DNA from: Escherichia coli O157:H7
Lineage (GTDB): Bacteria > Pseudomonadota > Gammaproteobacteria > Enterobacterales > Enterobacteriaceae
NCBI RefSeq assembly: GCF_013167455.1
Contig: NZ_CP038328.1
DNA length: 64,000 nucleotides
Direction: 5' to 3' (one strand)
Positions 14,301 to 17,300 of this stretch are shown here, piece after piece; position 1 is the first letter of the stretch; the number at the start of each line of letters is the position of its first letter. A program made the position numbers.

Positions 14301-17300
14301 AATGGATAACCACACCGCGTCTAACGCACATTAATTAAAAGTATTTTCCGAGGCTCCTCCTTTCATTTTGTCCCATGTGTTGGGAGGGGCCTTTTTTACC
14401 TGGAGATATGACTATGAACGTTATTGCAATATTGAATCACATGGGGGTTTATTTTAAAGAAGAACCCATCCGTGAACTTCATCGCGCGCTTGAACGTCTG
14501 AACTTCCAGATTGTTTACCCGAACGACCGTGACGACTTATTAAAACTGATCGAAAACAATGCGCGTCTGTGCGGCGTTATTTTTGACTGGGATAAATATA
14601 ATCTCGAGCTGTGCGAAGAAATTAGCAAAATGAACGAGAACCTGCCGTTGTACGCGTTCGCTAATACGTATTCCACTCTCGATGTAAGCCTGAATGACCT
14701 GCGTTTACAGATTAGCTTCTTTGAATATGCGCTGGGTGCTGCTGAAGATATTGCTAACAAGATCAAGCAGACCACTGACGAATATATCAACACTATTCTG
14801 CCTCCGCTGACTAAAGCACTGTTTAAATATGTTCGTGAAGGTAAATATACTTTCTGTACTCCTGGTCACATGGGTGGTACTGCATTCCAGAAAAGCCCGG
14901 TAGGTAGCCTGTTCTATGATTTCTTTGGTCCGAATACCATGAAATCTGATATTTCCATTTCAGTATCTGAACTGGGTTCTCTGCTGGATCACAGTGGTCC
15001 ACACAAAGAAGCAGAACAGTATATCGCTCGCGTCTTTAACGCAGACCGCAGCTACATGGTGACCAACGGTACTTCCACTGCGAACAAAATTGTTGGTATG
15101 TACTCTGCTCCGGCAGGCAGCACCATTCTGATTGACCGTAACTGCCACAAATCGCTGACCCACCTGATGATGATGAGCGATGTTACGCCAATCTATTTCC
15201 GCCCGACCCGTAACGCTTACGGTATTCTTGGTGGTATCCCACAGAGTGAATTCCAGCACGCTACCATTGCTAAGCGCGTGAAAGAAACACCAAACGCAAC
15301 CTGGCCGGTACATGCTGTAATTACCAACTCTACCTATGATGGTCTGCTGTACAACACCGACTTCATCAAGAAAACACTGGATGTGAAATCCATCCACTTT
15401 GACTCCGCGTGGGTGCCTTACACCAACTTCTCACCGATTTACGAAGGTAAATGCGGTATGAGCGGTGGCCGTGTAGAAGGGAAAGTGATTTACGAAACCC
15501 AGTCCACTCACAAACTGCTGGCGGCGTTCTCTCAGGCTTCCATGATCCACGTTAAAGGTGACGTAAACGAAGAAACCTTTAACGAAGCCTACATGATGCA
15601 CACCACCACTTCTCCGCACTACGGTATCGTGGCGTCCACTGAAACCGCTGCGGCGATGATGAAAGGCAATGCAGGTAAGCGTCTGATCAACGGTTCCATT
15701 GAACGTGCGATCAAATTCCGTAAAGAGATCAAACGTCTGAGAACGGAATCTGATGGCTGGTTCTTTGATGTATGGCAGCCGGATCATATCGATACGACTG
15801 AATGCTGGCCGCTGCGTTCTGACAGCACCTGGCACGGCTTCAAAAACATCGATAACGAGCACATGTATCTTGACCCGATCAAAGTCACCCTGCTGACTCC
15901 GGGGATGGAAAAAGACGGCACCATGAGCGACTTTGGTATTCCGGCCAGCATCGTGGCGAAATACCTCGACGAACATGGCATCGTTGTTGAGAAAACCGGT
16001 CCGTATAACCTGCTGTTCCTGTTCAGCATCGGTATCGATAAGACCAAAGCACTGAGCCTGCTGCGTGCTCTGACTGACTTCAAACGTGCGTTCGACCTGA
16101 ACCTGCGTGTGAAAAACATGCTGCCGTCTCTGTATCGTGAAGATCCTGAATTCTATGAAAACATGCGTATTCAGGAACTGGCTCAGAATATCCACAAACT
16201 GATTGTTCACCACAATCTGCCGGATCTGATGTATCGCGCATTTGAAGTGCTGCCGACGATGGTAATGACTCCGTATGCTGCATTCCAGAAAGAGCTGCAC
16301 GGTATGACCGAAGAAGTTTACCTCGACGAAATGGTCGGTCGTATTAACGCCAATATGATCCTTCCGTATCCGCCGGGAGTTCCTCTGGTAATGCCGGGTG
16401 AAATGATCACCGAAGAAAGCCGTCCGGTTCTGGAGTTCCTGCAGATGCTGTGTGAAATCGGCGCTCACTATCCGGGCTTTGAAACCGATATTCACGGTGC
16501 ATACCGTCAGGCTGATGGCCGCTATACCGTTAAGGTATTGAAAGAAGAAAGCAAAAAATAATTAGCTCGTACAAGGGAAGTGGCTTGCCACTTCCCTTTT
16601 TTGCTCATAAGGAGAACACATGAAAACACCCTCACAGCCGCGCGCGATATACTATATCGTGGCGATCCAAATCTGGGAGTACTTCAGTTTTTACGGCATG
16701 CGTGCCTTACTCATTCTCTATCTCACCCATCAGCTTGGTTTTGATGATAACCATGCCATCAGCCTGTTCAGCGCATATGCTTCTCTGGTTTACGTTACCC
16801 CTATTCTCGGCGGCTGGCTTGCCGACCGCCTGCTCGGCAACCGCACTGCAGTGATTGCCGGCGCGCTGTTAATGACCCTTGGCCATGTGGTGCTGGGTAT
16901 TGATACAAATTCAACCTTTAGCCTGTATCTGGCGCTGGCAATCATTATTTGTGGCTACGGTTTATTCAAATCAAACATCAGCTGTTTGCTTGGCGAGCTC
17001 TACGACGAGAACGATCATCGACGTGATGGCGGTTTTTCGCTGCTGTATGCTGCGGGCAATATCGGTTCTATCGCCGCCCCAATCGCCTGCGGCCTGGCTG
17101 CTCAGTGGTATGGATGGCATGTTGGCTTTGCCCTTGCGGGTGGCGGCATGTTTATCGGTTTGTTGATTTTCTTAAGCGGGCATCGTCATTTCCAGTCCAC
17201 GCGTAGTATGGATAAAAAAGCGCTCACTAGCGTCAAATTTGCCTTACCGGTATGGAGCTGGTTAGTGGTGATGCTCTGTTTAGCCCCAGTATTTTTTACC

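What the first reader, a model, noticed from the sequence alone, without database searches (positions are those of the whole stretch)
14335..14413. Terminator-like hairpin between cadB and cadA inside the cadBA operon
The 79-nt cadB-cadA spacer contains an imperfect GC-rich stem (gaggctcctcc / gggaggggcc) followed by TTTTTT just before the cadA RBS. A partial terminator or processing site here could set the CadB:CadA expression ratio.
Basis: seen in the sequence. Interest (0 to 1): 0.3.

Follow-up and report, generated by a model that had tools for sequence, protein, structure and literature searches.

The report
Conserved RNA hairpin between cadB and cadA
The hairpin between the two genes of the E. 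coli lysine acid-resistance operon is real and conserved in related bacteria, but its terminator-like T-run is specific to E. coli and published RNA data show no loss of transcript across it, so it is more likely an ordinary mRNA boundary element than a terminator.

Summary
The 79-nt cadB-cadA spacer (14335-14413) holds a 12-bp stem (14350-14361 with 14382-14393, three G-U pairs, 20-nt loop, -23.8 kcal/mol, z = -4.2). It runs into T6 (14392-14397), 4 nt before the cadA Shine-Dalgarno sequence.

The hairpin is a conserved RNA structure. A covariance model hits only cadB-cadA spacers, in 57 of 81 sources. On the model-fitted alignment, 14 of 17 pairs show compensatory changes, and one lies between E. 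coli and E. albertii.

The T-run is not conserved. Relatives carry a mixed pyrimidine linker of fixed length (10-13 nt), and only E. coli scores as terminator-like. One C-to-T change made the T6.

Two published E. coli RNA-seq data sets give cadA RNA at 1.6 to 2.7 times cadB in wild type. An efficient terminator would give the opposite.

My best reading (confidence 0.42) is a post-transcriptional intercistronic boundary stem-loop, in the manner of papBA or ompA. It would protect or insulate the cadA cistron. A weak leak of termination in E. coli is not excluded. There is no Rfam family, and I found no description in the papers I could search. Interest is modest.

The parts
14332..14334 (+). 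cadB stop codon (TAA); the hairpin begins 15 nt downstream
   Evidence: RefSeq annotation of identical sequence
14335..14349 (+). A/U-rich single-stranded leader of the spacer (UUAAAAGUAUUUUCC). It contains GU|AUU at 14341-14345, which fits the RNase E RN|WUU motif. UUUCC at 14345-14349 is complementary to the cadA SD.
   Evidence: Read from the sequence. The RNAfold MFE pairs 14345-14349 with 14402-14406. That helix has no covariation support. The RNase E motif is quoted from PMC5927463. Cleavage here is inferred, not shown.
14350..14361 (+). 5' arm of the conserved stem (GAGGCUCCUCCU)
   Evidence: covariation; E. albertii compensatory change G14352-C14391 to A-U
14362..14381 (+). 20-nt loop region. 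In most other genera it holds a second, covarying 5-bp inner stem (GUCAC/GUGAC), which has decayed in Escherichia.
   Evidence: helix 2: 85.9% of cells paired, 2 pairs with changes on both sides
14382..14393 (+). 3' arm of the conserved stem (GGGAGGGGCCUU). GGGAGGGGC is nearly invariant in Enterobacteriaceae.
14392..14401 (+). Pyrimidine-rich linker between the last G-C pair of the stem and the SD (UUUUUUACCU). It includes the E. coli-specific T6 run (14392-14397). Close relatives have TTCTTT or TTTCTTT here.
   Evidence: (linker 10-13 nt in 45 of 51 spacers, 79% pyrimidine)
14402..14405 (+). cadA Shine-Dalgarno sequence (GGAG), 8 nt before the start codon
14414..14416 (+). cadA start codon
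   Evidence: The translation matches CadA (MNVIAILNHMG...). K-12 annotation.
14399..14428 (+). Best predicted pairing site for the sRNA AzuR (AzuCR nt 84-114, -28 kcal/mol). It abuts the hairpin and T-run but does not overlap them.
   Evidence: Repression of cadA-gfp by AzuCR, with compensatory mutants, is reported in PMC8915982. The published coordinates are in a figure I could not read.

Best explanation
The spacer encodes a conserved RNA stem-loop that works after transcription as an intercistronic boundary element for the cadA cistron. It is not a terminator.

Proposed mechanism: RNA polymerase mostly reads through. The hairpin forms 15 nt after the cadB stop codon. It sits a fixed 10-13-nt pyrimidine-rich linker upstream of the cadA Shine-Dalgarno sequence.

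In this position it would do two things. (i) It would keep the cadA ribosome-binding region from pairing with cadB sequence, and would present a single-stranded pyrimidine landing strip for 30S/S1. (ii) After endonucleolytic cleavage in the A/U-rich stretch just upstream (14335-14349), it would become a 5'-proximal structure that slows further decay of the cadA segment, while the poorly translated cadB segment is degraded. The net effect is more cadA than cadB, in both RNA and translation.

The T6 run is a single C-to-T transition in that linker, specific to E. coli. Any termination it causes is a minor side effect in this lineage.

Shown: the hairpin, its covariation, the conserved linker length and composition, the T-run being specific to E. 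coli, and cadA RNA and ribosome density exceeding cadB (published data).

Inferred: cleavage upstream of the hairpin, protection of cadA, insulation of the RBS, and S1 use of the linker.
For: Structure. The stem is 12 bp, -23.8 kcal/mol, z = -4.2.

Conservation. Nearly every cadB-cadA spacer of 60 nt or more, from 73 loci, has a strong hairpin at the same place. On a sequence-only MAFFT alignment of 36 Enterobacteriaceae, 87.5% of cells pair, against 43-60% when partners are slid by 1-3 columns. Seven pairs have changes on both sides.

The covariance model R1 hits only cadB-cadA spacers, + strand, in 57 of 81 sources over 635 kb. On the resulting alignment, 90.2% of cells pair and 14 of 17 pairs show compensatory change. 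The covariation score is 0.384, against 0.06-0.18 for slid controls.

E. coli and E. albertii differ by a compensatory G-C to A-U change at 14352/14391.

It is an RNA-level feature. The sense strand folds better than its complement in 44 of 56 spacers, mean -20.0 against -17.2 kcal/mol.

Geometry. The linker from stem to SD is 10-13 nt in 45 of 51 spacers and 79% pyrimidine, against 56% for the spacers overall. Its length holds even where its sequence differs completely.

Expression. cadA/cadB RNA is 1.58 and 1.72. Ribosome footprints are 4.5 and 2.5 times higher on cadA. Translation efficiency is 0.94 and 0.91 for cadA, against 0.34 and 0.59 for cadB (PMC10746267 Table S5). In wild type in PMC5217608, cadA is 147.99 and cadB 55.73.

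Precedent. The papBA-type model (RNase E cut upstream of a hairpin, downstream gene with higher ribosome density stabilised) is described for E. coli operons in PMC5927463.

Paralogous cadBA copies and Vibrio/Aeromonas spacers carry hairpins not detected by the covariance model, also without U-tracts. Seven of these 12 spacers have z of -2.3 or below.
Against: There is no direct evidence of a processed 5' end upstream of the hairpin.

The predicted RNase E motif would leave 7 unpaired nt 5' of the stem. From my recollection of the ompA work, that is longer than ideal for 5'-end protection.

cadBA is in the operon list analysed by Dar and Sorek, but not in the differential-decay tables as held. 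Their cells were grown in LB, where the operon is weakly expressed.

The cadA excess over cadB at the RNA level is modest (1.6 to 2.7 times in wild type). It could instead come from a separate cadA transcription unit, which EcoCyc lists as 'cadA' alongside 'cadBA', from protection by heavier translation alone, or from library bias.

Whole-spacer folding z-scores are only -1.0 to -1.5 in several orthologues.

The alignment behind one search was fitted to the model structure and so leans towards it.
Confidence: 0.42

Rival explanations
1. Leaky intrinsic terminator (attenuator) in E. coli. The GC-rich stem followed by U6 makes a fraction of polymerases stop after cadB. This would yield a cadB-only transcript and lower cadA relative to cadB.
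For: In E. coli the hairpin plus tail scores d = +10.6 on a d'Aubenton-Carafa-type discriminant, like the true cadA terminator in the same window (+9.8) (formula recalled from memory). It is the most stable hairpin before any T6 run in the window. The T6 version is the common form in E. coli: 4853 of 5204 genomes are identical over the 80 nt, and none matches the TTCTTT variant. The hairpin starts 15 nt past the stop codon, so by my inference a terminating ribosome would not prevent it from folding.
Against: The U-tract is absent or interrupted in all other lineages that keep the hairpin. Only 1 of 56 homologous spacers scores above 0. The conserved function is therefore not termination. The loop is 20 nt, and the simple scan with a 3-8-nt loop limit does not call it. 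cadA RNA exceeds cadB RNA in two data sets. Dar and Sorek state that they excluded gene pairs separated by a Term-seq intrinsic-terminator site, and cadA-cadB is in their operon list S2. It is ambiguous whether S2 was drawn up before or after that filter. No spacer 3' end appears in the Adams et al. Term-seq tables, though those conditions were non-inducing. A terminator would also push the ratio away from the observed CadA excess over CadB.
Confidence: 0.2
2. 3' exonuclease barrier for cadB (malE-malF type). After endonucleolytic cleavage in cadA, the hairpin would stop PNPase and RNase II and stabilise the upstream cadB message.
For: It is a stable GC-rich stem-loop just after the stop codon of the upstream gene, without a conserved U-tract. 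That is the typical anatomy of such barriers (model in PMC5927463). Paralogous cadBA spacers carry compact GC-rich hairpins.
Against: This model predicts cadB RNA at or above cadA RNA. Both data sets show the opposite. cadB has the lower ribosome density, which makes it the less protected segment. The conserved 10-13-nt distance to the cadA SD is not explained by a 3' barrier.
Confidence: 0.12
3. Device for masking the SD and coupling translation. The pyrimidine tract 5' of the hairpin (UUUCC, 14345-14349) would be held next to the cadA SD (GGAGA, 14402-14406) by the hairpin and would pair with it. A ribosome terminating at the cadB stop, or cleavage upstream, would free the SD.
For: The MFE and centroid folds of the spacer contain this helix. 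The same pairing is predicted in many orthologues. 80.6% of cells pair in alignment A1. Predicted SD accessibility is 0.02 or less in full context and rises when the upstream segment is removed. It lies below the median of controls with random upstream segments in 14 of 16 species and level with it in the other two.
Against: No pair of this helix has a change on both sides, and one pair is broken in 24 of 36 sequences. In each species, 7-46% of random upstream segments mask the SD as well as the native one does. Any pyrimidine tract will pair with an SD. The helix adds only about 3 kcal/mol (against 4). cadA is translated more efficiently than cadB, which argues against strict coupling.
Confidence: 0.08
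4. Docking site for a trans-acting factor, for example ProQ or Hfq bound to a terminator-like stem with a U-rich tail. This could assist AzuR regulation of cadA or create a cadB 3'-end-derived RNA.
For: AzuCR represses cadA by pairing next to this element, and the repression is lost only in the hfq proQ double mutant (PMC8915982). The predicted AzuR site at 14399-14428 abuts the T-run. The 3' arm GGGAGGGGC is nearly invariant in Enterobacteriaceae, beyond what pairing alone requires.
Against: I found no binding data. According to PMC8915982, azuCR is not broadly conserved, whereas the hairpin is conserved across Enterobacterales. The invariance of the 3' arm can be explained by G pairing with either C or U, which lets the 5' arm drift (most changes are C to U opposite G).
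Confidence: 0.08

Closest known systems
papB-papA intercistronic stem-loop, and ompA-type 5' stabilising hairpins, in E. coli
   Same: A stable stem-loop lies between two cistrons, or at the 5' side of a well-translated cistron, close to its ribosome-binding site. The downstream, more heavily translated gene ends up more abundant than the upstream one (model summarised in PMC5927463).
   Different: No RNase E cleavage or processed cadA transcript has been shown here. There is no sequence relationship. The hairpin here sits at a conserved 10-13-nt distance from the SD.
Intrinsic (Rho-independent) terminators, e.g. the cadA terminator at 16573-16598 in this window
   Same: A GC-rich stem immediately followed by a T-run. 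The crude discriminant score is similar (10.6 against 9.8).
   Different: The loop is 20 nt, against 4 nt. The T-run is not conserved outside E. coli. The element lies inside an operon, and the downstream gene has the higher RNA level.
malE-malF REP-type 3' protective hairpins
   Same: An intercistronic GC-rich stem-loop without a conserved U-tract.
   Different: It is not a repeated element. There is one copy per genome, and the covariance model hits only cad spacers. The upstream gene is not the more abundant one.
Synthetic tunable intergenic regions (hairpin, RNase E site, hairpin) used to set operon stoichiometry (recalled from the literature, not checked here)
   Same: A hairpin adjacent to an A/U-rich single-stranded stretch, between two cistrons whose outputs differ.
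   Different: This is a natural, single-hairpin element. Its function is untested.

Membership tests
Intrinsic (Rho-independent) terminator | GC-rich stem of about 5-14 bp | tested here: met
   12 pairs, 7 of them G-C, -23.8 kcal/mol
Intrinsic (Rho-independent) terminator | Short loop (typically 3-8 nt) | tested here: not met
   The loop region is 20 nt. It is not reported by the scan limited to loops of 3-8 nt.
Intrinsic (Rho-independent) terminator | U-tract directly after the stem | tested here: met
   T6 at 14392-14397 in E. coli. In orthologues the tract is interrupted or absent, and only 1 of 56 scores above 0.
Intrinsic (Rho-independent) terminator | RNA 3' ends at the U-tract, or a drop of downstream RNA in vivo | tested here: inconclusive
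   Published rpkm gives cadA/cadB of 1.58 to 1.72 and 2.7, so there is no drop. No spacer 3' end appears in the Term-seq tables, but those conditions were non-inducing. Dar and Sorek's S2 list includes cadA-cadB. No 3'-end map under induction was available.
Intercistronic protective or insulating stem-loop (papBA / ompA / malEF kind) | Stable stem-loop in the intercistronic region, maintained by selection | tested here: met
   Covariation. The model hits only cad spacers.
Intercistronic protective or insulating stem-loop (papBA / ompA / malEF kind) | Unequal steady-state RNA of the flanking cistrons despite co-transcription | tested here: met
   cadA exceeds cadB 1.6- to 2.7-fold in wild type in two published data sets. 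A separate cadA transcription unit is listed in EcoCyc and is not excluded.
Intercistronic protective or insulating stem-loop (papBA / ompA / malEF kind) | Endonucleolytic (RNase E) cleavage next to the hairpin, and different half-lives of the segments | not testable with these tools
   Only a motif match is available (GU|AUU at 14341-14345). The supplement of the Salmonella RNase E cleavage map, as held, has no cad entries.
REP / BIME repeated extragenic palindromes | Many dispersed copies per genome | tested here: not met
   One place per genome (median 1). The covariance models find a single hit in the 64-kb window and none outside cad spacers in 635 kb.
Any curated Rfam family | Match to a covariance model | tested here: not met
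   No hit in 14335-14413, even at E-values up to 10
Translational-coupling structure that masks the SD | The SD is paired to an upstream segment within reach of the terminating ribosome, with evolutionary support | tested here: inconclusive
   The helix is predicted and 80.6% of cells pair, but there are no compensatory changes. Accessibility is not distinguishable from random upstream segments in any single species.

The most novel reading that the evidence does not exclude
The hairpin, the fixed 10-13-nt pyrimidine linker and the SD together form an undescribed cis-regulatory RNA module, conserved across Enterobacterales. The module would actively set CadA:CadB stoichiometry, through RNase E processing with 5' capping and/or S1-mediated ribosome recruitment. 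In E. coli alone, one C-to-T change would have turned it into a dual element that also gives a leaky terminator or a chaperone-binding 3' end. That end could feed into AzuR/ProQ control of cadA, or release a cadB 3'-derived RNA.
Probability: 0.12. Interest if true: 0.5.

Novelty: new member of a known kind. Interest (0 to 1): 0.3.

Why it matters
The Cad system is a textbook acid-resistance module. Its transcriptional control (CadC, LysP, H-NS) is well studied, but how one transcript yields several-fold more decarboxylase than antiporter has, to my knowledge, received little attention.

A covariation-supported stem-loop at a fixed distance from the cadA ribosome-binding site gives a concrete element to mutate in order to test that question. 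It sits next to the reported AzuR target site.

It is also a useful caution for annotation. In E. coli the element passes a classical terminator discriminant because of a single base change, while comparative and expression data argue that it is not primarily a terminator.

Tried and rejected
- Rfam scan of 10000-18000 at E-values up to 10: nothing in the spacer.
- Repeated element (REP): rejected. There is a single copy per genome, and the covariance model hits only cad spacers.
- AzuR pairing with the hairpin or T-run: rejected. The best local duplex is 14399-14428, from the SD to codon 5. An unrestricted duplexfold gave a meaningless full-length duplex.
- SD masking by UUUCC: no covariation, and not distinguishable from random upstream segments.
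- Internal promoter in the spacer: no sigma-70-like site on the + strand near it. My own reading of TATTTT at 14342-14347 found no usable -35 element.
- N-terminal extension of CadA from the in-frame ATGs at 14375 and 14408: neither start is supported (no SD before 14375, SD too close to 14408), and 14375 is not conserved.
- RNAalifold on the raw MFFT-style alignment picked a shifted register, because the G-run and pyrimidine-run can slip. I therefore specified the structure by hand.
- Literature: Meng and Bennett 1992 is not held. Searches for cadBA or cadB with terminator, stem-loop, monocistronic or ProQ found nothing on this element. One search was wasted by an over-loose term setting. The TIER-seq supplement, as held, has no cad entries.
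- Whole-spacer z-scores are weak in several orthologues, so I relied on covariation rather than folding energy.
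Full report
**1. What is there**

The window is E. coli. A 479-nt stretch across the junction is 99% or more identical in 5196 of the 5206 complete genomes that hold it, and RefSeq annotates cadB and cadA on it. 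The 79-nt spacer is identical to K-12 MG1655.

cadB ends at TAA 14332-14334, and cadA starts at ATG 14414. The 728-aa ORF that starts at 14375 is only an upstream in-frame ATG.

RNAfold pairs 14350-14361 (GAGGCUCCUCCU) with 14382-14393 (GGGAGGGGCCUU). This gives 12 contiguous pairs, three of them G-U, around a 20-nt loop region. The energy is -23.8 kcal/mol, z = -4.21, and 0 of 200 shuffles fold as well.

T6 occupies 14392-14397, GGAG 14402-14405, and AUG 14414. Among all T6 runs in the window that can be preceded by a hairpin, this hairpin is the most stable (-20.3 kcal/mol). It is more stable than the hairpin of the canonical cadA terminator at 16573-16598 (-15.1).

**2. It is a conserved RNA structure**

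A scan of one genome per species with CadB returned 80 loci. In 73 of them cadA follows cadB, and I extracted those spacers. Nearly all spacers of 60 nt or more fold into a strong hairpin at the same position.

The arms differ between lineages in a complementary way:
- Serratia: AGCCCCUUGC / GCAAGGGGCU.
- Edwardsiella: GCCUCUCUC / GAGAGAGGC.
- Vibrio: GGCGCUC / GAGCGCC.

On a sequence-only MAFFT alignment of 36 Enterobacteriaceae, I specified the structure by hand. It has 12 outer pairs plus a 5-bp inner stem. 87.5% of cells pair, against 43-60% when partners are slid by 1-3 columns, and seven pairs have changes on both sides.

A covariance model built from that alignment hit 57 of 81 sources. 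Every hit was the cadB-cadA spacer on the sense strand, with nothing else in 635 kb. On the resulting alignment 90.2% of cells pair, and 14 of 17 pairs show compensatory change. The covariation score is 0.384, against 0.06-0.18 for slid controls. That alignment is fitted to the model, which favours the structure.

A second model adds Edwardsiella hoshinae, and weakly Vibrio harveyi (E = 0.07).

E. coli and E. albertii differ by G14352-C14391 to A-U. The sense strand folds better than its complement in 44 of 56 spacers, so this is an RNA feature rather than a DNA palindrome. Rfam has no match. No feature is annotated in the spacer in K-12.

**3. The terminator-like tail is specific to E. coli**

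Between the last G-C pair of the stem and the SD lies a linker. It is 10-13 nt long in 45 of 51 spacers (median 11), and it is 79% pyrimidine, against 56% for the spacers as a whole. Its sequence varies:
- E. coli: UUUUUUACCU.
- The divergent Escherichia genome L003: UUCUUUACCU.
- E. albertii: UUUCUUUACCU.
- Klebsiella pneumoniae: UUUCUACAUCU.
- Buttiauxella: (GCUC)CCCAUACCU.
- Serratia: UCGCAUUACCU.
- Edwardsiella: CCGCAUUUUGCCU.

I applied a d'Aubenton-Carafa-type discriminant, recalling the formula from memory and using modern energy parameters, so it is only a relative measure. Only the E. coli sequence scores above 0 (10.6; the cadA terminator scores 9.8). K. michiganensis and its close relatives score -0.9, E. 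albertii -5.9, and the rest -12 to -87.

The T6 therefore arose by one C-to-T transition in a pyrimidine linker. It is the common form in E. coli: 4853 of 5204 genomes are identical over 80 nt, and none carries the TTCTTT form.

**4. Published expression data**

In Schumacher et al. 2023 (PMC10746267, Table S5):

| Measure | cadA | cadB | Ratio |
|---|---|---|---|
| RNA rpkm, pH 4.4 | 2322 | 1469 | 1.58 |
| RNA rpkm, pH 5.8 | 534.5 | 311.5 | 1.72 |
| Footprint rpkm, pH 4.4 | 2176 | 481 | 4.5 |
| Footprint rpkm, pH 5.8 | 459.5 | 183 | 2.5 |

In Aquino et al. 2017 (PMC5217608), wild-type RNA-seq values are 147.99 for cadA and 55.73 for cadB. That table also lists an EcoCyc transcription unit 'cadA' beside 'cadBA'.

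Dar and Sorek 2018 (PMC5927463) say their operon set excluded pairs separated by an intrinsic-terminator Term-seq site or by an internal start site. cadA-cadB is in their list S2. Whether S2 precedes or follows that filter is ambiguous.

Adams et al. 2021 list only a cadB-internal 3' end, and their conditions were non-inducing.

Taken together, there is no sign of attenuation at the junction. The downstream gene is the more abundant one.

**5. Neighbouring regulation**

AzuCR represses cadA by pairing near its RBS (PMC8915982). My local duplex search puts the best site at 14399-14428, with AzuCR nt 84-114, at -28 kcal/mol. This is directly after the T-run and outside the hairpin.

The tract UUUCC (14345-14349) can pair with the SD in the MFE fold. 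That helix has no compensatory changes. Its predicted masking effect is not distinguishable from that of random upstream segments in any single species.

**6. Interpretation**

Selection keeps three things: the stem, its position, and a fixed-length pyrimidine linker to the SD. It does not keep a U-tract. Together with cadA exceeding cadB in RNA and in ribosome density, this points to a post-transcriptional boundary element for the cadA cistron. Such an element would insulate and present the RBS. It would also probably serve as a 5'-proximal protective structure after cleavage in the A/U-rich 14335-14349 stretch, where GU|AUU matches the RNase E motif. I give this 0.42. The cleavage and the protection are inferred, not shown.

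The rivals are:
- A leaky terminator specific to E. coli (0.20).
- A 3' barrier for cadB (0.12). The direction of the RNA ratio argues against it.
- SD masking and translational coupling (0.08).
- A factor-docking site (0.08).

Paralogous cadBA copies in Hafnia, Edwardsiella and Pluralibacter, and the spacers of Vibrio and Aeromonas, carry hairpins that the covariance model does not detect, again without U-tracts. This fits a general need for a structured boundary between these two genes.

**7. Novelty and score**

Intercistronic stem-loops that shape operon stoichiometry are a known kind (papBA, malEFG, and many cases in PMC5927463). This one is not in Rfam, and I did not find it described in the papers I could search. 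I file it as a new member of a known kind, with interest 0.3. The main practical result is that the terminator reading is probably wrong, or at most a minor feature specific to E. coli.

Noticed in passing
window 14375-14416: Two in-frame ATGs lie upstream of the cadA start, at 14375 inside the hairpin loop and at 14408. A mechanical ORF call therefore gives 728 aa instead of 715. The 14375 ATG has no SD before it and is not conserved in other genera. The 14408 ATG lies only 2 nt after the SD.
   Followed up: partly
window 14399-14428 (AzuR gene at L081 3844-4002, minus strand): The best predicted AzuR-cadA duplex (-28 kcal/mol) runs from the SD to codon 5, directly after the T-run. This is consistent with the published repression of cadA by AzuCR.
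   Followed up: partly
window 14345-14349 with 14402-14406: UUUCC, 5' of the hairpin, is complementary to the cadA SD (GGAGA) and pairs with it in the MFE fold. A similar pyrimidine tract is present in most orthologues, but there are no compensatory changes.
   Followed up: yes
L049, L058, L059, L061, L062, L063 (second cadBA-like copies in Hafnia, Edwardsiella and Pluralibacter; a Plesiomonas MAG): Divergent or paralogous cadB-cadA pairs have GC-rich hairpins in the same spacer that the covariance model does not detect. They have small loops and no U-tract, and lie 18-24 nt from the SD where measured (four spacers). L062 is an exception: it has only a weak, non-significant fold (z = +2.08). 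This suggests a recurrent need for a structure between these genes.
   Followed up: partly
L074, L075, L079 (Vibrio), about 10-30 nt after the cadB stop: Vibrio spacers carry two hairpins. An extra perfect stem (GCUGGCAC...GUGCCAGC) lies right after cadB. The second hairpin, GGCGCUC/GAGCGCC, lies 12 nt before the SD.
   Followed up: no
L043, L047, L051, L057, L080 (Edwardsiella, Hafnia), 5' part of the spacer: These longer spacers (138-150 nt) contain an additional conserved small hairpin (GUAAUC-N5-GAUUAC) upstream of the main stem. They also contain a GC(A/U)UUUUGC motif between the main stem and the SD.
   Followed up: no
L032 (record titled Chryseobacterium sp. 18061) compared with L030 (Citrobacter sp. 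18056): An assembly labelled Chryseobacterium carries an Enterobacteriaceae-type cadBA locus. Its spacer is almost identical to that of a Citrobacter isolate from the same project. The likely cause is a mislabelled or contaminated assembly.
   Followed up: no
window 6165-6186: A perfect 8-bp hairpin (GGCACGUC...GACGUGCC) is flanked by T-runs on both strands. It looks like a bidirectional intrinsic terminator.
   Followed up: no
L083 (E. coli GZ04-0083), equivalent to window 14389: A natural E. coli variant has G14389A, which breaks the C14354-G14389 pair of the stem. 351 of 5204 genomes differ from the window somewhere in the 80 nt around the hairpin. I did not survey these variants.
   Followed up: partly
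PMC5217608 supplementary tables (operon column): EcoCyc-derived operon labels list a separate transcription unit 'cadA' in addition to 'cadBA'. I found no promoter-like site for it near the spacer. If it is real, it would be another explanation for cadA RNA exceeding cadB RNA.
   Followed up: partly
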